DNA from: a virus
Taxonomy: Duplodnaviria; Heunggongvirae; Uroviricota; Caudoviricetes
IMG/VR virus record: IMGVR_UViG_2706794676_000001
Strand: one strand, 5' to 3'
DNA: 7,160 nt
This document shows, one piece after another, positions 99-6,698 of this stretch. Numbering within the stretch: position 1 is the stretch's first letter; each line of letters opens with the position of its first letter. Below the pieces are notes generated by a model, which saw nothing but the letters and a program-made list of their open reading frames with translations, was not told the origin of the DNA and made no database searches. The translations under genes were made by a program, and so were the position numbers.

Positions 99-545
99 TT
101 AAATCTTCCAGGAAATTTCTGCATTGCCGTCAGCATCACCGGCACCTGTGAATTCAGCGTTGGTCAGCACCACGTTTTTGCCACTGACTGACGTGGACAT
201 GAATCCACCCAGCGGCACTTTGATGGATTCATCAGTGGAGACGACAACGTATACCGGATGCTTCATGGCGTCGCCCGGGAAGTTCTTGCCTGTTCCCACC
301 TGGCGAACCATGTCCGGCTGCGACGTGGTCGGATAAGGGCGCACGTAGATCCCCTTCACCTTGTCTGCGGTATCACCATCTGCCAGCGGCACGAAAAAAC
401 CGTCATCATCGTATTTACCAGCCAGGCCATAGGCAGCGAAGGCGTTATCGGATTTAAGGACCACCGGTTCGACGGTTAAGTCCTGCGGGCGAGAGACAGC
501 CCCGGCAATGCCAACAGGCATCCGGTACAGAAATACATTATTCAT
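99..545 (-). CDS. Phage head-module protein of unknown function (148 aa), possibly a capsid-associated or decoration protein
   Basis: Intact 148-codon ORF with ATG at 545-543 and TAA at 101-99. A Shine-Dalgarno-like AAGGG lies 6 nt upstream, inside the 3' end of the preceding gene, which stops only 3 nt before this start. Same strand and tight spacing as the head genes upstream. No recognisable catalytic motif; function inferred from position only. Confidence 0.6.
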   Translation of the reverse strand: MNNVFLYRMPVGIAGAVSRPQDLTVEPVVLKSDNAFAAYGLAGKYDDDGFFVPLADGDTADKVKGIYVRPYPTTSQPDMVRQVGTGKNFPGDAMKHPVYVVVSTDESIKVPLGGFMSTSVSGKNVVLTNAEFTGAGDADGNAEISWKI

Positions 546-548
546 TTT

Positions 549-1769
549 TTACCCTTTACGGTTTGCCCAGAATTCAGCGTTTTGTTTGTTCAGGGAAGCG
601 ATACTGGTCATGCCCATGTTTAGGCGCTGTGCATCGCCGGTGGTGGCGCGGGTGTTTCGCCCTTTGGCAACCTCAGACACGGCATTAAACGCCATGTCGA
701 CCGATTGTTTCGGTAATTTGCGGATATCCGCATCACCGACTATCTGGCGAACCAGCGTTTTGTCAGCAGAAGCCAGAACCTCGCGTTTGAACGCGGTCGG
801 TTTCATCTTACGGCTCAGATCGATACCCGGAACGATAACTTCGGCACGCCAGGCTGAGTCACCAGTAATCGTGGTTTCCTCTTCATCGTCCTCGCCGTCA
901 CCGGTCGGATTATCGTCAGGCTTATTATCGTTATCGCCCGTGGCATTTCTTTCCAGCTTAGCCAGCAGGGCTTTCAGTAATGTTTTGAGGTCATCATCAC
1001 TGTCGCCGGTTGGATCTCCGCCCATCTCTGGTGCTTTGTCCGGTAGTGGTTGCTGCGGGGACAGGTTGATGTTGAGATTAACGCCCTGCGGCAAATCCCC
1101 CTCATCTCCTGTAACCGATGCGGGAGCCGACTCCACCAGTTCGTTCATGGTGTCGGCATCTCCTGTCTTGATGGCCGCACGCATGCGGTTCCACCAGTTT
1201 TTCTTTTGATTTGCCATTGTGTCTCTGTCTCCAATTGCACAACGATTTCCGGCTCTGCCTTTAGGGACAAGAGCCACATGGTTTCCGGTAATATCGACCT
1301 GCTCGGCTTTACCTGGCTCGGTCTGCTCGTACTCCGCGTCATAGCCGCACGACACTTCGCGCAGGCCATCTTCGATAAGCTGAATGGCGCTTTCGTCTTT
1401 GACGATAAGGTCAGCCAGCATCAAATCAGACTGCTCACCCGTCCCGCGCCGGACATTCTGGAGGTGCCCGACAGCAAGCTCTTTCCAGTTCTCGGGATTT
1501 ACCAGCCGCACATTCCCGTTTTCATCTTCAGGATGCAGGATCGTGATGCTCATCCCTTCGAATGAGGCAAGCGTGGCCGGATGGAATACCTGCTCAGGAG
1601 AACGCGTGACGACTATTTCACCGAACTTATCGGGTTTCAGTTTTGGCAGGTCATCAGCACCATAGAGCTGCTTACCTGTTCGTCCTATCGGCACGTCTTT
1701 GCACAGCAACGAGCCGTCAGCCAGGCGGTATCGGGTTTCCCCGAGCCTGGTCTCAAAAAAGTATTTCAT
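549..1769 (-). CDS. Phage head-assembly protein (406 aa): N-terminal globular domain, long acidic Asp/Gly/Glu-rich linker, C-terminal domain; putative scaffold or protease-scaffold fusion, possibly DUF2213-like
   Basis: Intact ORF with ATG at 1769-1767 and TAA at 551-549, starting 3 nt after the Mu F-like gene stop. Residues about 201-305 are low-complexity and acidic (TGDEGD...DSDDD...GDNDNKPDDNPTGDGEDDEEE), typical of scaffolding proteins. Sits between the head morphogenesis gene and the downstream capsid genes. Family name is from memory, not a search. Confidence 0.7.
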   Translation of the reverse strand: MKYFFETRLGETRYRLADGSLLCKDVPIGRTGKQLYGADDLPKLKPDKFGEIVVTRSPEQVFHPATLASFEGMSITILHPEDENGNVRLVNPENWKELAVGHLQNVRRGTGEQSDLMLADLIVKDESAIQLIEDGLREVSCGYDAEYEQTEPGKAEQVDITGNHVALVPKGRAGNRCAIGDRDTMANQKKNWWNRMRAAIKTGDADTMNELVESAPASVTGDEGDLPQGVNLNINLSPQQPLPDKAPEMGGDPTGDSDDDLKTLLKALLAKLERNATGDNDNKPDDNPTGDGEDDEEETTITGDSAWRAEVIVPGIDLSRKMKPTAFKREVLASADKTLVRQIVGDADIRKLPKQSVDMAFNAVSEVAKGRNTRATTGDAQRLNMGMTSIASLNKQNAEFWANRKG

Positions 1770-1772
1770 GGG

Positions 1773-2555
1773 TTATGCTGCCCTTTTCATTGCGAATGGA
1801 ACGCGAACAAACACGATCTCTTTATAGCAGCGGCAGTTTGGCAGCTCGCCCGCGTGGCCGGTCATGCCGTCCAAAGTTGGAGGTGAATCCCAGCGGACGA
1901 ATTTACCTTTCATGTGATCGTGGGAATCTCGGACATCGCCATCATCGGCTGTACGCCAAATATAACCATCCGAGCCAATAGCTATCGCTCGGGCCATATC
2001 CAGCGCGCCCGTTGCTCTTCCCAGTTCCGTTCGGGCAATCAGATCGGCCCTAGACTTAGCAACATCGCCGGTAGATGCAATCTCTTTAGCAAACTGCTCC
2101 GCCCGACCACCGGTGACAACAGCCTCTATCGCTTTGTTCTGGATGTCGTACACCCTGTCTGCGGCCTCGAGAGGCAGAGATTTGATGTACTTGACCTGTT
2201 CGGCGATGATGGATTGCATCACCTGGCCCACAGGAGCGCTTTCCACAAGATTGCGGAGCTCGCGACTGATGTTCTTGCTGTGTTGCCGCCAAACTTTCTC
2301 GTTCTGCCGGGTTAGGTCCGCAGTAAAGTTTTCCGCGACCTTTGTCGCCCAGGGGGTGATGATTTCACTGTAACGCTCCAGCGCCGCAATAATTTCCGTG
2401 ATACTGTCATTTGAACCATCGTAGCGACCATTTACGATGTCTCCGACCGCCCTCGCTATCCTGCGTAGGCTGGTTCGATACCGGATTTCCGCCTGACGGC
2501 TCCTGCGGTTCGTCATCAGGTTCGCCGATGCCGGGCGGCGCTTCATCTTCGGCAT
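1773..2555 (-). CDS. Phage head morphogenesis protein, Mu F / SPP1 gp7 family (260 aa)
   Basis: Intact ORF with ATG at 2555-2553 preceded by GAGGA 8 nt upstream, and TAA at 1775-1773. The C-terminal half carries the family's hallmark residues (ARTELGRA, W-x-TADDGDVRDSHD, LDG, then PNCRCY). Position directly after the portal gene is canonical for this family. Confidence 0.85.
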   Translation of the reverse strand: MPKMKRRPASANLMTNRRSRQAEIRYRTSLRRIARAVGDIVNGRYDGSNDSITEIIAALERYSEIITPWATKVAENFTADLTRQNEKVWRQHSKNISRELRNLVESAPVGQVMQSIIAEQVKYIKSLPLEAADRVYDIQNKAIEAVVTGGRAEQFAKEIASTGDVAKSRADLIARTELGRATGALDMARAIAIGSDGYIWRTADDGDVRDSHDHMKGKFVRWDSPPTLDGMTGHAGELPNCRCYKEIVFVRVPFAMKRAA

Positions 2556-3489
2556 TCTCGATGTCCTCGTCGGTAATGGATGCCCCGATGCCGGTTACGT
2601 CAGAATTTTCTCGCAAATCAGTCATAGCGGCTTTCAGTGTCATCAGACCATCACCCAGCGCCGTACTGATTGCGTTGGTGGTGTTTAACGCCACCGTTGA
2701 GCGATCGACATCAGACATTTGCCAGAGCGGGTTAAACTCAAACGTGAAATCGTCCGGCAGCGGCTTGCCAAGTTCCGAACGATGCATGATGTCCAGTATC
2801 CGCCGCACCGGAAGACGTAAACGCCTCTCCTGCAACGAACTGATGCGATCGTAATAGTTGGCAAGGTCTGCATCACCGGTAGAAAATCCTTTCGGGGACT
2901 GTCCGAACAACCGCACCAGTGGGATACCAACAGCGCCACTAATCTGTTCTACAAACTGCGAAAGGATGTCATCCAGACCACTGAAGCTGTACTGATGGGT
3001 TTCAAACTTATCCCGCGAGTCCATGAGCGTCATGCCTTCATTACTCTGGAACTGTCGAATCAGGTCGATATTCTTCAGCAACGCTTCATACGCAGGACCA
3101 CCAAGTGCGATAAGCTCGCGTAGCTTCTCCACGCTGTAGGTACGCAAATGCGCCTTGTAGACCAGCTGCGCCGCGCCGACAGTAGCGCTGTCGAACGCGG
3201 TAAGACGATCCCAGATACGCTCTACAACCGACATTCCCCATTCGTTCTCGGTCATCTTCTGCTGAAATGGCAACGTGACGCCATCAAAGCGAATCAGGCG
3301 ACTGTGATGAATGCGCCAGGCAGGAATTCCCGTTGCTGTGGTCACCACATCGTAAAACTCAGGTTTACCCAGGTCCGGCCCCATATCTTTAATGCGGCGG
3401 GTCAGTGCCGGGTCGACCATCCAGCGGTCGAGCGGGAGAATCCCCTTAAACTTGCCCTTACCGATGGTTTCGGGTCGCAGCGGGGTCAT
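2407..3489 (-). CDS. Portal protein, largest uninterrupted segment (360 codons) of the portal reading frame
   Basis: ORF with ATG at 3489-3487 preceded by GAGGGG about 9 nt upstream, and TGA at 2409-2407. Acidic C-terminal tail and position between large terminase and Mu F-like gene fit a portal. This start is in frame with an upstream ATG at 3873; see the pseudogene feature covering 2407-3873. Confidence 0.7.
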   Translation of the reverse strand: MTPLRPETIGKGKFKGILPLDRWMVDPALTRRIKDMGPDLGKPEFYDVVTTATGIPAWRIHHSRLIRFDGVTLPFQQKMTENEWGMSVVERIWDRLTAFDSATVGAAQLVYKAHLRTYSVEKLRELIALGGPAYEALLKNIDLIRQFQSNEGMTLMDSRDKFETHQYSFSGLDDILSQFVEQISGAVGIPLVRLFGQSPKGFSTGDADLANYYDRISSLQERRLRLPVRRILDIMHRSELGKPLPDDFTFEFNPLWQMSDVDRSTVALNTTNAISTALGDGLMTLKAAMTDLRENSDVTGIGASITDEDIENAEDEAPPGIGEPDDEPQEPSGGNPVSNQPTQDSEGGRRHRKWSLRWFK

Positions 3490-3873
3490 TGGTGCCTACC
3501 CCTCAATCATGATGAAACCCACCGCGCCGCCGTAGAGGCGCGACCATTTCAGCACGTCATTCAGCGCATCCCAGATTTGCAACTCATCCAGTTGTGATTC
3601 GAGAATGCCACGATCTTTTGCATCAATTTCCGAAGTGATGCGAATGCCTTTGCGGGTCATATCATCCGGGATAGCATCGACTGCTTCGCCGATGATCTAG
3701 GATGAACGATAGGACCATTCCACCAGCATGCGGTTACGACTGGTGAAATTAGCCCGGTAGGTGGATGCTGAGTGCTGGTTAGGTGTCTGCATCCCTACGC
3801 GGGCAATAAAATTCTCATAACCATCAGCTGTGGCCTGCACAGTTCGCCGCAGGGCTTGTTTGTTTCGTGCCAT
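2407..3873 (-). pseudogene. Full-length portal gene frame (about 488 codons) interrupted by two in-frame amber (TAG) codons; either a nonsense-disrupted portal or one needing amber suppression
   Basis: Read directly from the sequence. ATG at 3873-3871 overlaps the large terminase TGA stop (ATGA coupling) and has GGGGAGA about 8 nt upstream. The frame then reads 58 codons (MARNKQALRRTVQATADGYENFIARVGMQTPNQHSASTYRANFTSRNRMLVEWSYRSS), TAG at 3699-3697, 66 codons (IIGEAVDAIPDDMTRKGIRITSEIDAKDRGILESQLDELQIWDALNDVLKWSRLYGGAVGFIMIEG), TAG at 3498-3496, Ala-Pro, then the ATG of the 360-codon ORF. 3873 and 3489 are exactly 384 nt (128 codons) apart. The total length matches typical portal proteins. 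Confidence 0.55.
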
Positions 3874-5303
3874 CAGGCCTGTCTCCCCAGCTGTTCCCAG
3901 ATATCCAGCGATGTATCGATTGGCGCGAAGGCCATAATGAATGCATCAGCAACGTTTGGTGACGGTATCTCGCGTTTTGCGAGGTCTTTTTTACTTTCGA
4001 CCATCACACGTCCGTTACGGTCGAAATCACGATGAGGTGTTGTCAGTTCCAGTTTCAGCTTTTCAAGCAACGGACAACGAGAATCTATGCTGATCAGCTC
4101 ATCCACAGGATACTGTTCTCCGTTGTTAATGGCGTTAAACGTATTTCTGAAACGGTCAGCCACCAGCCACCATGCCTGAGCCTTAAGATTTGCGAAAAAG
4201 TCTTTGTTGGGGATGCCGTTGTACTCGTCATCTGGCTCATGCACACCAGCACCGGCGTTAAACCTCTGGTAATTCACACGTCGCGCGTATGCGTTCTCGC
4301 TCTTCCGGTCAGCGTTAATTTCAGAGAATTTAGCACCGGCAGACGCACCAACACCGATAGAGTCGTAAACAATATCTGCTTCACGCTCCAGCGCCGCCTG
4401 ATAAGTACGCTGGCAGCTCTTCAGTAATTCATCTTCTTTGGCCTTCCATTCGTCGGCCCAGAAAACAACGGATCCGTGACGGTAAACGTTAGCGCACTTA
4501 TCTGTACCACTGTCAGCCACGTCAAAGCCAATACGCTTTCTTCCACTGGGTTCGAAATTTAACGTTTTGTGCGCATCCACTGCGGCTTCTATCCAAGACA
4601 GTTTGATGATTGCCGCATCATCATCAGACTCCGGAACGCCCTCATACACATGTTTAAAACCATCCGGATCACGGCGTCGCGCCGCGTCGATAACCTTAAG
4701 CATGGTGTCAGACAGAAACGGATTTTCGTCATAGTTAATTTTGCGGATGAGAGTGCCTTCGGGCGGATCAACAACGAAGTTGCGCCAGACGAAATCAGTA
4801 ACAAGTCCGGGGTTGAATATGAACCAGCATTCCGAACCCTCTTTACGGATCGTTGGCTCCAGAATTTTCCACTGGTATTCCGTCAGTGCGTGGGCTTCTT
4901 CCAGCCACAACACATCGATCCCCTCCAGTGACTTAATTTCTTCGATGTTGCGCCATAATCCATAAAAAACAAATTCCGAGCCAGTAACCCGGTTAATGAT
5001 TTTGTTGTTCAGAATACGGAAACGGTGCCGCAGACCAAACCTGTCTATCTGAATTTTGAGCAGGGTATACACCGACTCTTCGATTTTATTCTGGATCTGA
5101 CGGGCACAACAAAAACGCAGGGTGTATTTATTCGACAGAAATATGGCAATGCCAGCGGCATCCCATGATTTTGACGATGACCGACCACCATAAAGCACTT
5201 TGTTACGTGCCCGCATAGTCCAGAAACTACGTAAAGCCGGATTCAGCGTCGGTTTGGATGTCAGAGTAGAAGTCATTGAGGTCACGCTCTCCATTGCCAT
5301 CAT
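3873..5303 (-). CDS. terL: Terminase large subunit (PBSX/Terminase_6-like ATPase-nuclease)
   Basis: Long intact ORF ending at TGA 3875-3873. Contains the N-terminal LNPALRSFW motif followed by a Walker A / P-loop (VLYGGRSSSKSW), a Walker B-like hydrophobic stretch ending in acidic residues (IDVLWLEEAH), and a C-terminal nuclease-like region. The longest ORF begins at 5384 with a non-ATG start; ATG codons at 5303, 5300, 5294 and 5276 are more likely starts (AGGT lies 4-5 nt before 5303). Exact start is uncertain, and any of them overlaps the small terminase 3' end. Confidence 0.9.
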   Translation of the reverse strand: MMAMESVTSMTSTLTSKPTLNPALRSFWTMRARNKVLYGGRSSSKSWDAAGIAIFLSNKYTLRFCCARQIQNKIEESVYTLLKIQIDRFGLRHRFRILNNKIINRVTGSEFVFYGLWRNIEEIKSLEGIDVLWLEEAHALTEYQWKILEPTIRKEGSECWFIFNPGLVTDFVWRNFVVDPPEGTLIRKINYDENPFLSDTMLKVIDAARRRDPDGFKHVYEGVPESDDDAAIIKLSWIEAAVDAHKTLNFEPSGRKRIGFDVADSGTDKCANVYRHGSVVFWADEWKAKEDELLKSCQRTYQAALEREADIVYDSIGVGASAGAKFSEINADRKSENAYARRVNYQRFNAGAGVHEPDDEYNGIPNKDFFANLKAQAWWLVADRFRNTFNAINNGEQYPVDELISIDSRCPLLEKLKLELTTPHRDFDRNGRVMVESKKDLAKREIPSPNVADAFIMAFAPIDTSLDIWEQLGRQA

Positions 5304-5991
5304 CAATACCTGCATCACGGCGAAGACGATCAGCCTCCAGAGACACCTTATCAGTGGCGGCCTTGCGGTAGGCTGTATCAGCAAATATTTTTCCTACCGT
5401 CGCAAGCGTGCCAACGATGGACTCAATACGAACTGTATTGCGCATCATTGCTTTCTCGGCGGCGCTGATATTTTCAATCAGCATCTTCCTTTCCTGGTCC
5501 CCATTAGCATCTTCCAGCGACACCAACCACCGACCAATATTCTCTGCAGCGACAAGGTTGTTAGCACGAAGGCGAAATAATTCGTCCTCGAGCGTCAACG
5601 CTTTAGCGTCCTCTATCACCTCATCTTTGAGCAGAAGGCGACGGGCATAACCACCGTGTTTTAATGCCTGCTGGTTACCGGGTTGGAATGGGTTAGTCGG
5701 GGGATCGGTACGCATTCCGCGTATCGGTTTCGTATCCGGTGTAGATTCTGTTTTTAGTTGCGTACTTTTTTGTGTAAGGCCAGTAATGGCAGGCTTTCTG
5801 CTGGTACGCACTTTCCTTTTTTGCGTACCATTTTTGCAAACCTGCGTACCGCCACTGCGTGCCCAACCAAGCTTTTTGGCCCTCTTCCTGATAGCCCCTT
5901 CTGTAACGCCGTATTTCTCGCCTATATCACGGAGGCTAAGGACTCCGGCCCGGTATGCCGATTCGATGGCCTCCCAGTCCGGTTTTGCCAT
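5227..5991 (-). CDS. terS: Terminase small subunit (254 aa) with N-terminal helix-turn-helix DNA-binding domain
   Basis: Intact ORF with ATG at 5991-5989 preceded by AGGAAG 7 nt upstream, and TAG at 5229-5227. N-terminus (SLRDIGEKYGVTEGAIRKRAKKLGW) is a classic HTH as in small terminases, followed by a basic linker and a conserved PGNQQALKHGGYAR motif. Lies immediately upstream of, and overlapping, the large terminase. Confidence 0.8.
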   Translation of the reverse strand: MAKPDWEAIESAYRAGVLSLRDIGEKYGVTEGAIRKRAKKLGWARSGGTQVCKNGTQKRKVRTSRKPAITGLTQKSTQLKTESTPDTKPIRGMRTDPPTNPFQPGNQQALKHGGYARRLLLKDEVIEDAKALTLEDELFRLRANNLVAAENIGRWLVSLEDANGDQERKMLIENISAAEKAMMRNTVRIESIVGTLATVGKIFADTAYRKAATDKVSLEADRLRRDAGIDDGNGERDLNDFYSDIQTDAESGFT

Positions 5992-6101: not shown

Positions 6102-6188
6102 TACCTTGTAAATGTAAGGTGTTTAAGCCTAAATTAAGTCGTATCACGGTTAAATAGCAAAGAAAAATTCACAGAAGGAAAGACATTG

Positions 6189-6698
6189 ATGGAGTGGATA
6201 AATGCTTTGATGAACTATTTTGTACTTCATCCATATCGCCTATGGGGGCTTCTTTTTATAATAGCGTTCACAAAATCCACTTTACTCATTTCGGCGATAT
6301 TGCCACCAGCATCAATTATGATGGCCACTGTAATTACAGTCAGCAAGACGACTCTTTCACCATGGGAAGCTGGAATCACGGTCATGAGTGGCGCATGGTG
6401 CGGTACTATCGTTAATTACCATCTTGGTATAATAATTGGGCATATCCCTCAACTTGCATGTATAATATCAAGCCGTTCCAATACAATAGAACGGGTTCGC
6501 CTTCAGTTGCAAAATAACTCTGTGTCAATACTTTTCACTTCGCGCTTTATCGCCGTGCTGCGTTATATTGCTCCTTTGGTGGCAGGAATGTTGCAACTTC
6601 ATCCAGTGAAAGTGTATACAGTGAGTCTGATTTCAGCTGCTAGCTGGTCAGCACTTTATGTTGGTAGTTTTAGCTTCGTGTTGCCTTTTTTTAGCTAA
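6189..6698 (+). CDS. Small polytopic inner-membrane protein (about 169 aa, four predicted TM helices), resembling DedA/YqaA-type (SNARE-associated / VTT-domain) proteins; prophage moron
   Basis: ORF on the strand opposite all phage genes. ATG at 6189 is preceded by AAGGA 9 nt upstream; the track's 6186 start is a TTG one codon earlier. Stop is TAA at 6696-6698. Markedly AT-rich (a sampled 60-nt stretch is about 37% GC against about 60% in the flanking structural genes). Four hydrophobic segments with Gly-rich motifs (SGAWCGTIVNYHLGIIIG, RYIAPLVAG) recall YqaA/DedA proteins; this is recollection, not a search result. Confidence 0.65.
   Translation: MEWINALMNYFVLHPYRLWGLLFIIAFTKSTLLISAILPPASIMMATVITVSKTTLSPWEAGITVMSGAWCGTIVNYHLGIIIGHIPQLACIISSRSNTIERVRLQLQNNSVSILFTSRFIAVLRYIAPLVAGMLQLHPVKVYTVSLISAASWSALYVGSFSFVLPFFS

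What the first reader, a model, noticed from the sequence alone, without database searches (positions are those of the whole stretch)
855..1217. Possible nested scaffold gene: in-frame internal start with Shine-Dalgarno site ahead of the acidic linker in the 406-aa head protein
Inside the 549-1769 gene, an in-frame ATG at 1217-1215 (Met185, context IGDRDT-M-ANQKKNWW) is preceded by GGAGA about 10 nt upstream. It sits just before the acidic low-complexity region (residues about 201-305, nt about 855-1169) and the C-terminal domain. Lambda makes its Nu3 scaffold from an in-frame internal start within the C protease gene; the same arrangement here would give a full-length protein plus a roughly 222-aa scaffold from one ORF.
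Basis: inference. Interest (0 to 1): 0.4.

Follow-up and report, generated by a model that had tools for sequence, protein, structure and literature searches.

The report
Scaffold gene nested in phage protease gene
Comparison with about 150 related phage and prophage genes indicates that this prophage head gene makes two proteins, a full-length capsid-maturation protease and, from a conserved internal start, a shorter capsid scaffold, an arrangement already known from phages lambda and Mu and from herpesviruses.

Summary
ATG 1217-1215 (Met185) lies in frame in the 406-aa gene (549-1769, minus strand), 10 nt downstream of GGAGA (1232-1228).

In this one sequence that is not beyond chance. Comparison makes it convincing:
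- 131 of 137 diverse homologs have a Met in the short linker after the DUF2213 domain.
- 78 of 80 loci from different species have an ATG there with a Shine-Dalgarno-like motif 4-11 nt upstream. One more uses GTG.
- The Gly180 codon that forms the motif is GGA in 60 of 62 loci, against 11% GGA elsewhere in the same genes.
- The site is unusually unstructured and AT-rich.
- Distant clades keep the signal, switching between ATG and GTG.

The N-terminal domain is predicted to fold like the T4 gp21 and herpesvirus assemblin proteases, with invariant His79, Ser140 and His164. In the distant homolog Pa193 gp24, the C-terminal half was seen by cryo-EM bound inside the capsid.

This is a new, unannotated example of a known arrangement (lambda C/Nu3, Mu I/Z, HSV UL26/UL26.5). 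Translation from Met185 has not been shown experimentally. The prophage in this window looks defective, because its portal gene carries two nonsense codons.

The parts
549..1769 (-). Full-length 406-aa gene (44.4 kDa): DUF2213 protease domain, linker, and a scaffold-like C-terminal half. The stop codon is at 551-549.
   Evidence: ORF list. Pfam DUF2213 E 2.8e-42. phrog_1961 E 1.8e-198 and 'head maturation protease' PHROGs. RefSeq annotates the 99.8%-identical copy as a single CDS, 'DUF2213 domain-containing protein'.
1227..1769 (-). N-terminal domain, aa 1-181: predicted prohead serine protease with the assemblin/T4 gp21 fold. His79, Ser140 and His164 are invariant.
1767..1769 (-). Start codon of the full-length protein. 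It lies 3 nt after the TAA (1775-1773) of the upstream MuF-like gene and has only a weak SD-like AAGGG (1785-1781, 11-nt spacer).
   Evidence: Sequence. Anti-SD pairing is -4.4 here against -6.4 at the nested start. Across 45 loci the gene's own start averages -4.0 and the nested start -6.7, and the nested SD is the stronger in 89%.
1228..1232 (-). Shine-Dalgarno-like GGAGA for the nested start, built from Gly180 (GGA) and Asp181 (GA-).
   Evidence: Sequence. The Gly180 codon is GGA in 60 and GGG in 2 of 62 non-redundant loci, against 10.7% GGA among other Gly codons of the same genes. Its third-position entropy is 0.20 bits, against a next-lowest value of 1.20 and a median of 1.73 over 41 conserved four-fold-degenerate columns.
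1215..1217 (-). Nested in-frame start codon, ATG (Met185).
   Evidence: A Met lies in this linker in 131 of 137 diverse representatives, against about 27% expected. An ATG with SD is present in 78 of 80 species-level loci, and GTG with GGAGA in one more. The surrounding RNA is unusually unstructured (mean z +1.6) and AT-rich (55% against 43%).
549..1217 (-). Nested ORF: predicted 222-aa (24.0 kDa, pI 4.8) scaffold protein, identical to the C-terminal 222 residues of the full-length protein.
   Evidence: The nested product begins 'MANQKK'; homologs begin 'MAKK', 'MTTK' or 'MSKK', which look like genuine N-termini.
1200..1244 (-). Disordered interdomain linker (aa 176-190) that contains the SD and the nested start.
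   Evidence: AF2 pLDDT is below 50 for residues 176-190. The linker varies in length and sequence among homologs, and the Met stays close to the downstream helix.
855..1169 (-). Acidic, mostly disordered region (aa 201-305), with one amphipathic helix (aa 259-273, nt 995-951, LKTLLKALLAKLE) and six of the seven T-G-D motifs.
   Evidence: D+E 25.7%, pI 4.05. AF2 secondary structure and pLDDT. T-x-D enrichment.
645..872 (-). Confidently predicted helical C-terminal domain (aa 300-375), containing the conserved 'RAEV/ILxPGI' motif. It is a candidate capsid- or portal-binding domain.
1146..1148 (-). Second candidate in-frame start, Met208, with AGGAG (1164-1160) 11 nt upstream. It is much less conserved.
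   Evidence: Pairing is -7.4. Only 30 of 137 representatives have Met at this column.

Best explanation
The gene at 549-1769 (minus strand) is a two-product head-assembly gene on the phage late mRNA.

The first product comes from ATG 1769-1767. This start has a weak SD and lies 3 nt after the stop of the upstream MuF-like gene, so initiation there is probably low-level and coupled to translation of that gene. It gives the 406-aa protein: an assemblin/T4-gp21-fold serine protease (candidate triad His79, Ser140, His164) joined by a disordered linker to a helical and acidic C-terminal half.

The second product comes from ribosomes that load independently at GGAGA (1232-1228) and start at ATG 1217-1215. 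It is the 222-aa C-terminal half alone. This short protein is the scaffold for the DUF2184 major capsid protein.

Because the protease carries the same C-terminal sequence, a few protease molecules co-assemble with the scaffold core inside the procapsid. The protease then destroys the scaffold so that DNA can enter, possibly at the repeated conserved T-x-D motifs.

What is shown and what is inferred:
- Shown by sequence comparison: selection acts on the start codon, on the SD (including a synonymous site), and on an open RNA structure at this point.
- Shown by structure prediction and fold search: the N-terminal domain has the protease fold, and the C-terminal half is helical and disordered.
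- Inferred: actual translation of the short product, the ratio of the two products, the scaffold role, and the cleavage sites.
For: 1. A Met lies in the linker in 131 of 137 representatives clustered at 50% identity or less. About 27% would be expected from a 2% Met frequency and a linker of about 16 aa.

2. In 80 loci from different species (100% down to 32% identity), 78 have an ATG there, all with GGAG, AGGA or AAGGA 4-11 nt upstream. Anti-SD pairing averages -6.7 kcal/mol, and 94% of sites reach -6 or lower. Only 6% of 475 other in-frame ATGs and 11% of all codon positions do so. The one intact locus without Met has GTG with GGAGA 6 nt upstream.

3. There is constraint on a synonymous site. 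Gly180 is GGA in 60 of 62 loci and GGG in 2, against 10.7% GGA elsewhere, and this holds even in genomes of 60-67% G+C. Its third-position entropy is 0.20 bits, against 1.20-2.0 at the 40 other conserved four-fold-degenerate columns on the same tree. Where residue 180 is not Gly, other codons supply the SD, such as AAG-GAx or GAC-GGA-G.

4. The start region is less folded than the rest of the gene, with mean z +1.6. It falls in the least-structured fifth of the gene in 81% of 69 loci. AT content is 55% against 43%.

5. The nested SD is stronger than the gene's own SD in 89% of 45 loci.

6. Distant DUF2213 clades keep the signal: Pbunavirus JG024 Met195, KpV52 Met191, ZF40 Met191, cyanophage JY40 Met205, RHEph06 Met195 and ZHS Met208. 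In 71 IMG/VR loci, ATG or GTG with an SD lies directly before a conserved K-x-I-x-L-D-G-L motif, with Met and Val interchanging at the initiator position.

8. Scaffold role. PDB 9b40 chain G, Pa193 gp24 'scaffolding protein', has a DUF2213 N-terminal domain (the JG024 ortholog matches Pfam at E 2.5e-33). Its residues 286-326, which lie downstream of the nested start, form a helix-turn-helix pentamer on the capsid interior (PMC11456595). The gene order portal, MuF, DUF2213, cement protein, major capsid holds in every phage examined, with no separate scaffold gene.

9. No sigma-70-like promoter lies between 1217 and 1769 on the minus strand. This fits internal initiation on one mRNA.
Against: - There is no experimental evidence (proteomics, ribosome profiling, N-terminal sequencing) for the short product in any DUF2213 phage in the literature I could search.
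- Within the window alone the SD+ATG is unremarkable, and Met208 and TTG226 score equally well or better.
- The 10-nt spacer is at the long end of the usual range.
- phiEcoM-GJ1 (Chaseviridae) has no ATG, GTG or TTG at the boundary, and the Lactobacillus clade has only a weak SD. The arrangement is therefore not universal.
- The sequences share ancestry, so raw counts overstate independence. The entropy comparison controls for this.
- In this window the prophage looks defective, so the gene may no longer be used here.
Confidence: 0.75

Rival explanations
1. P2 gpO-type single product. Only the 406-aa protease-scaffold fusion is made. It scaffolds the capsid itself and then removes its own scaffold part by autoproteolysis. 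The internal Met and GGAGA are incidental consequences of the conserved Gly-Asp codons.
For: Fused protease-scaffold proteins without nested translation exist; P2 gpO is described this way in the HFTV1 preprint. phiEcoM-GJ1 has no start codon at the boundary. All public annotations list a single CDS.
Against: Gly-Asp alone does not require GGA. GGA is used in 60 of 62 loci against 10.7% elsewhere, and this column is the single outlier among 41 comparable columns. When residue 180 is not Gly, an SD is made from other codons. Met is replaced only by Val encoded as GTG. The RNA around the site is unusually open.
Confidence: 0.07
2. The short protein is made from Met185 but is not a transient scaffold. 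It would be a permanent internal capsid protein, for example a vertex 'dowel' that stabilises pentons, or a regulator or inhibitor of the protease.
Against: No other scaffold candidate lies between the portal and capsid genes in any of the phages examined. The product has the typical scaffold make-up: helical, acidic and disordered, with a basic helical C-terminal domain. The repeated conserved T-x-D motifs suggest that it is cut into pieces. The Pa193 authors themselves read the density as a scaffold remnant.
Confidence: 0.12
3. The conserved SD-like element is a translational pause site that lets the protease domain fold before the C-terminal half emerges, or a site of another RNA-level function. 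The nearby Met is unrelated.
For: The motif lies exactly at a domain boundary, in a disordered linker.
Against: A start codon follows at SD-appropriate spacing (4-11 nt) in 79 of 79 intact loci. The start-codon position tracks the SD when the linker length changes. ATG and GTG interchange. The sequence after the start is Lys-rich and AT-rich, like a real initiation region. A pause site would not need any of these features.
Confidence: 0.03
4. In this particular clade the nested product starts at Met208 (ATG 1148-1146, AGGAG 11 nt upstream) rather than at Met185, or at both.
For: The Met208 SD pairs more strongly (-7.4 against -6.4).
Against: Met is present at column 208 in only 30 of 137 representatives, against 131 of 137 with a Met in the linker. 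Met208 lies inside the predicted helices at residues 192-220 rather than in the linker.
Confidence: 0.03

Closest known systems
Phage lambda C / Nu3
   Same: [quoted passage not shown] Both starts have SD sequences on one late mRNA (established knowledge; stated in the HFTV1 preprint; gene table). The position between the portal and capsid genes is the same.
   Different: Lambda gpC is listed as an S49-family peptidase, a fold I take from established knowledge to be unrelated to assemblin. No S49 match was found here. The protease here has the assemblin/gp21 fold. There is no detectable sequence relationship.
Phage Mu I / Z (p20), and Mu-like Pseudomonas phages
   Different: It is a different sequence family. 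Mu I is Pfam Mu-like_Pro PF10123, and a profile comparison of the DUF2213 alignment with Mu I gives probability 0.07%.
Herpesvirus UL26 / UL26.5 (assemblin and scaffold)
   Different: In herpesviruses the short product comes from a separate promoter and transcript (established knowledge). Here no internal promoter is seen, and an SD indicates internal ribosome loading.
Haloferax tailed virus 1 gp17 / gp17.5
   Same: It was annotated as a single fused 'P2 gpO-like' protein. Ribosome profiling and mass spectrometry then showed an in-frame internal start that gives an excess of the C-terminal scaffold (bioRxiv 10.64898/2026.09.13.751334). The same experiment would settle the case here.
   Different: It is an archaeal virus with no SD motif at the internal start. 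Its homology to DUF2213 was not tested.
Pseudomonas phage Pa193 gp24 (PDB 9b40), Pbunavirus
   Same: It belongs to the same Pfam family in its N-terminal domain and has the same gene position. Its C-terminal half was seen inside the capsid and called a putative scaffolding protein. Its ortholog in JG024 has the best SD of the whole gene at Met195, directly after the DUF2213 domain.
   Different: Only the N-terminal domain aligns; the C-terminal halves are not alignable. The published description mentions neither a protease domain nor an internal start (0 occurrences of 'protease').
Phage P2 gpO
   Same: An N-terminal protease and a C-terminal scaffold lie in one ORF (as described).
   Different: gpO is described as synthesised only as the full-length protein, which then cuts itself. 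Here a conserved internal initiation site is present.

Membership tests
Nested protease/scaffold gene pair (lambda C/Nu3, Mu I/Z type) | The long product carries an N-terminal capsid-maturation protease domain. | tested here: met
Nested protease/scaffold gene pair (lambda C/Nu3, Mu I/Z type) | An in-frame internal start codon with a ribosome-binding site lies at the boundary after the protease domain. | tested here: met
   ATG 1217-1215 with GGAGA 1232-1228, inside the disordered linker at residues 176-190.
Nested protease/scaffold gene pair (lambda C/Nu3, Mu I/Z type) | The internal start and its RBS are conserved among homologs beyond what the protein sequence requires. | tested here: met
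   131 of 137 representatives have the Met. 79 of 79 intact loci have a start codon plus SD. There is a GGA codon bias and a third-position entropy outlier. Distant clades use ATG or GTG.
Nested protease/scaffold gene pair (lambda C/Nu3, Mu I/Z type) | The short product is actually synthesised, in excess over the long one. | not testable with these tools
   Only indirect evidence exists. The nested SD is stronger than the gene's own SD in 89% of loci, and the RNA at the site is open. No proteomic or ribosome-profiling data were found.
Nested protease/scaffold gene pair (lambda C/Nu3, Mu I/Z type) | The shared C-terminal part acts as the capsid assembly scaffold. | tested here: inconclusive
Pfam DUF2213 (PF09979) | The score exceeds the Pfam gathering threshold. 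| tested here: met
   145 bits against a cut-off of 22, residues 16-181.
Assemblin / T4 gp21-type prohead serine proteases (fold level) | The fold is shared with solved members. | tested here: met
Assemblin / T4 gp21-type prohead serine proteases (fold level) | A catalytic Ser and His (plus a third residue) are positioned as in known members. | tested here: inconclusive
   His79, Ser140 and His164 are invariant, in the same order as the assemblin Ser-His-His triad (triad named, abstract of PMC4498786).
Mu-like_Pro (PF10123, Mu gpI family) | There is detectable sequence homology to Mu gpI. | tested here: not met
   hhalign of alignment A1 against Mu I gives probability 0.07% and E 0.68. The query has no PF10123 hit.
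Lambda gpC family (S49 peptidase) | The protein matches the S49 peptidase family. | tested here: not met
   Only DUF2213 is found at E 0.01 or better. The predicted fold is assemblin/gp21-like.
P2 gpO-type fused protease-scaffold (single product) | There is no internal initiation, and the scaffold is released only by autoproteolysis. | tested here: not met
   A conserved internal initiation signal is present. Whether autoproteolysis also occurs was not tested.

The most novel reading that the evidence does not exclude
Nearly the whole DUF2213 family has a herpesvirus-like design. The family has thousands of members, with 6418 cluster representatives at E 0.001 or better, and it includes the therapeutic Pseudomonas Pbunaviruses, Klebsiella Jedunaviruses, cyanophages and many prophages. 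In this design an assemblin-fold protease gene hides an unannotated scaffold gene, read from a conserved internal ATG or GTG. The scaffold carries repeated conserved T-x-D motifs, which are the protease's cleavage sites. If so, Pa193 gp24 and its relatives are protease-plus-scaffold pairs rather than 'a scaffolding protein'. The nested arrangement would also be shown in one more protease sequence family, separate from those of lambda, Mu, HFTV1 and the herpesviruses.
Probability: 0.6. Interest if true: 0.55.

Novelty: new member of a known kind. Interest (0 to 1): 0.5.

Why it matters
Annotation. It gives a concrete function to a widespread 'domain of unknown function' and adds a missing gene, the scaffold, to thousands of phage and prophage annotations. 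These include phages used for therapy. None of the 12 phage and prophage records whose annotation I inspected lists the nested product.

Interpretation of published structure. It suggests a new reading of a published cryo-EM density. The Pa193 gp24 fragment lies in the nested product of what is also a protease gene.

Evolution. It extends the nested protease/scaffold design to another protease sequence family that has the herpesvirus fold. This bears on the proposed common ancestry of tailed phages and herpesviruses.

Practical use. The case is directly testable, and the conserved SD+ATG/GTG rule could be built into phage gene callers.

Tried and rejected
- Sequence search of the PDB with the single protein found nothing. 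Only the family profile found Pa193 gp24.
- The first scan of viral contigs with the single protein returned only relatives of 97% identity or more, which were useless for conservation tests.
- An alignment of very distant N-terminal domains was too divergent to seed a scan. Single distant proteins were used instead.
- The profile comparison with Mu gpI was negative.
- No supplementary proteomics tables of the Pa193 paper were available to look for C-terminal peptide excess.
- The one paper that treats DUF2213 at length, a Tn-seq study calling it an 'essential domain' in a Burkholderia prophage gene, has no bearing on the mechanism.
- An apparent double annotation under the match in Klebsiella phage GZ7 proved to be an antisense over-call, not a nested CDS.
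- The 217-aa database protein P0152, which begins exactly at the nested Met, cannot be distinguished from a gene-caller artefact on a degraded copy, so I did not count it as evidence.
- The rule 'first ATG after the domain' underestimates the signal in the KpV52-like and some cyanophage clades. There, a second ATG or a GTG is the one preceded by the SD.
- No internal promoter was found.
Full report
CONTEXT

The window is the head-morphogenesis module of an E. coli/Shigella prophage related to Salmonella phage SEN34 (Brunovirus), Hafnia phage yong1 and the Escherichia vB_EcoM-6xx phages. All of these genes lie on the minus strand:
- putative small terminase, 5227-5991
- large terminase, 3873-5384
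- DUF1073 portal, 2407-3873
- MuF-like head morphogenesis gene, 1773-2555
- the 406-aa DUF2213 gene, 549-1769
- an E217 gp24/XM1 gp53-type cement protein, 99-545

In the intact relative the DUF2184 major capsid gene follows. About 339 of 5426 complete E. coli genomes carry this gene.

CHECK OF THE OBSERVATION

The ATG at 1217-1215 is codon 185, in frame. GGAGA lies at 1232-1228, which leaves a 10-nt spacer. The nested ORF would give 222 aa. Residues 201-305 are acidic (25.7% D+E, pI 4.05).

Taken alone this is not beyond chance. Met208 and TTG226 in the same gene have equally good or better SD-like motifs. About 11% of codon positions in such genes pair with the anti-SD at -6 kcal/mol or lower.

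COMPARATIVE TEST AT THE PROTEIN LEVEL

An exhaustive search of cluster representatives at 50% identity found 6418 family members at E 0.001 or better. I aligned 136 near-full-length representatives with the query. In 131 of the 137 sequences a Met lies in the short variable linker. This linker runs between the conserved end of the DUF2213 domain (G-R-[AC]-G-x-R-C-x-I-x-D, residues 171-181) and the first conserved helix of the C-terminal half. About 27% would be expected from a 2% Met frequency and a mean linker of 16 residues. When the linker is longer the Met stays close to the downstream helix. The sequence after it (MAKK, MTTK, MSKK) looks like a protein N-terminus.

COMPARATIVE TEST AT THE DNA LEVEL

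A scan of one genome per species returned 80 loci, from 100% down to 32% identity.
- 78 have an ATG in the linker. Every one has GGAG, AGGA or AAGGA 4-11 nt upstream.
- Predicted anti-SD pairing averages -6.7 kcal/mol, and 94% of sites reach -6 or lower. Only 6% of 475 other in-frame ATGs and 11% of all codon positions in the same genes do so.
- Of the two exceptions, one is a broken ORF. The other has GTG with GGAGA 6 nt upstream.

The SD is made largely from the Gly180-Asp181 codons. The Gly codon is GGA in 60 and GGG in 2 of 62 non-redundant loci, although GGA is only 10.7% of the other Gly codons in these genes. Many of the hosts have 60-67% G+C.

As a control that shares the same phylogeny, I compared third-position entropy over all 41 conserved four-fold-degenerate columns. 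Gly180 has 0.20 bits. The next lowest column has 1.20, and the median is 1.73. Where residue 180 is Gln, Lys or Asn, the SD is supplied by other codons.

The 53-nt RNA window around the start is less structured than the rest of the gene, with mean z +1.6. It falls in the least-structured fifth in 81% of 69 loci, and it is more AT-rich (55% against 43%). The nested SD is stronger than the SD of the gene's own start in 89% of 45 loci. The gene's own start in the window lies 3 nt after the upstream stop codon and has only AAGGG 11 nt upstream. No promoter-like site lies inside the gene upstream of Met185.

DISTANT CLADES

The same signal appears directly after the DUF2213 domain in these phages. 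It is the best SD among the gene's in-frame ATGs, with two exceptions: in JY40, ZF40 and RHEph06 only when the annotated start is set aside, and not in ZHS.
- Pbunavirus JG024: Met195, MSLKKAKQK
- Klebsiella phage KpV52: Met191
- Pectobacterium phage ZF40: Met191
- cyanophage Ssp-JY40: Met205
- Rhizobium phage RHEph06: Met195
- Edwardsiella phage ZHS: Met208

In 71 non-redundant IMG/VR loci of the KpV52-like and cyanophage-like clades, an SD plus ATG or GTG lies immediately before a conserved K-x-I-x-L-D-G-L motif. Loci without Met at that position have Val encoded by GTG. This Met/Val(GTG) interchange is what an initiator codon predicts.

There are exceptions. phiEcoM-GJ1 has no start codon at the boundary, and the Lactobacillus clade has only a weak SD.

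WHAT THE TWO HALVES ARE

The AlphaFold model, built from 85 sequences, shows these regions:
- a confident beta-rich N-terminal domain (residues about 10-175, pLDDT above 90)
- a disordered linker, 176-190, which contains Met185
- helices at 192-220
- a disordered acidic stretch with one amphipathic helix at 259-273
- a confident helical domain at 300-375

Independent experimental support comes from a distant homolog. The family profile hits PDB 9b40 chain G, 'gp24 scaffolding protein' of Pseudomonas phage Pa193. Residues 286-326 of that protein form a helix-turn-helix pentamer on the inner capsid surface at the five-fold vertices (PMC11456595). That segment lies in the nested product. The paper does not mention a protease domain or an internal start.

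In all phages examined the gene order is portal, MuF, DUF2213, small cement or structural protein, major capsid, with no separate scaffold gene.

MECHANISM PROPOSED

One late mRNA gives two products. A small amount of the 44-kDa protease-scaffold fusion comes from a weak, probably translationally coupled start. A larger amount of the 24-kDa scaffold comes from the internal SD and ATG. The shared C-terminus takes the protease into the assembling procapsid, and the protease then removes the scaffold.

A further observation fits this model. The nested product of the window has seven T-G-D motifs. Across 137 representatives, T-x-D occurs 6.0 times per C-terminal half against 1.6 in shuffled sequences. 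The Asp residues of several of these motifs (D204, D291, D304) are among the few near-invariant columns of that region. I suggest these are the cleavage sites, by analogy with the short acidic cleavage motifs of other prohead proteases (my own knowledge, not tested).

COMPARISON WITH WHAT IS KNOWN

Nested scaffold-in-protease genes are established or reported in several systems:
- Lambda C/Nu3.
- Mu I/Z, which is annotated in NC_000929 and has been predicted in Mu-like Pseudomonas phages.
- Herpesvirus UL26/UL26.5.
- The archaeal virus HFTV1, shown by ribosome profiling.

The DUF2213 family is not detectably related in sequence to Mu gpI and has no S49 match. In fold it belongs with gp21 and assemblin.

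I found no paper that reports a nested start in a DUF2213 gene, and none of the public annotations I inspected contains one. I therefore rate this as a new member of a known kind. It is well supported computationally and not yet shown experimentally.

STATE OF THIS COPY

Compared with a 99.8% identical prophage in E. coli FDAARGOS_944, the window's portal gene carries two nonsense codons (substitutions at 3498 and 3698). The cement gene lacks 60 nt at 259/260. The DUF2213 gene itself is intact, but this prophage probably cannot make heads. The nested start here is inherited rather than necessarily in use.

Noticed in passing
window 3496-3498 and 3697-3699 (minus strand, portal gene 2407-3873): The DUF1073 portal gene has two in-frame stop codons (protein positions 59 and 126). 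They are caused by single substitutions at 3498 and 3698 relative to the 99.8%-identical intact prophage in E. coli FDAARGOS_944 (L003). The prophage in the window is probably defective.
   Followed up: partly
window 259/260 (cement-protein gene 99-545, minus strand): There is a 60-nt in-frame deletion relative to L003, so the product is 148 aa instead of 168 aa. It affects the E217 gp24/XM1 gp53-type cement protein.
   Followed up: partly
window 549-1217 (minus strand); T-G-D at aa 202, 220, 254, 277, 289, 302 and 377: The nested product has seven T-G-D motifs. Family-wide, T-x-D is about four-fold enriched in the C-terminal half (6.0 against 1.6 in shuffles). The Asp residues of several motifs (D204, D291, D304) are near-invariant in an otherwise hypervariable acidic region. 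They may be cleavage sites of the protease.
   Followed up: partly
window 1146-1148 (ATG, Met208) and 1160-1164 (AGGAG), minus strand: There is a second in-frame ATG with a strong SD-like motif 23 codons downstream of Met185. It is conserved only in the close clade: Met at that column in 30 of 137 representatives.
   Followed up: partly
L217, L218, L222, L226, L227, L229, L231, L240, L253 (IMG/VR loci) and L136: In homologs that lack Met at the nested start position, the residue is Val encoded by GTG and preceded by a good SD. ATG and GTG interchange at the same alignment position.
   Followed up: yes
L166 2957-3030 (phiEcoM-GJ1 gp51): The Chaseviridae member of the family has no ATG, GTG or TTG between the DUF2213 domain and the C-terminal half. 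It may be a true single-product fusion, or it may use a non-canonical start such as ATT. Its annotated GTG start also looks doubtful.
   Followed up: no
window 6186-6698 (plus strand): A DedA-family membrane protein gene lies on the opposite strand, between the terminase and lysis genes of the prophage (annotated as such in L003). It is a likely moron, that is, an extra cargo gene.
   Followed up: no
window 2407-2555: The MuF-like ORF (from ATG 2555) overlaps the 3' end of the portal gene by about 150 nt. RefSeq annotates a shorter MuF that still overlaps by 110 nt in L003. The true MuF start is uncertain.
   Followed up: no
L167 2402-3493 (KpV52 gp16), residues 196-259: The region immediately after the nested Met191 gives a sub-threshold hit to Pfam Phage_scaffold PF06810 (E 0.006). 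This is a weak independent hint of scaffold identity.
   Followed up: no
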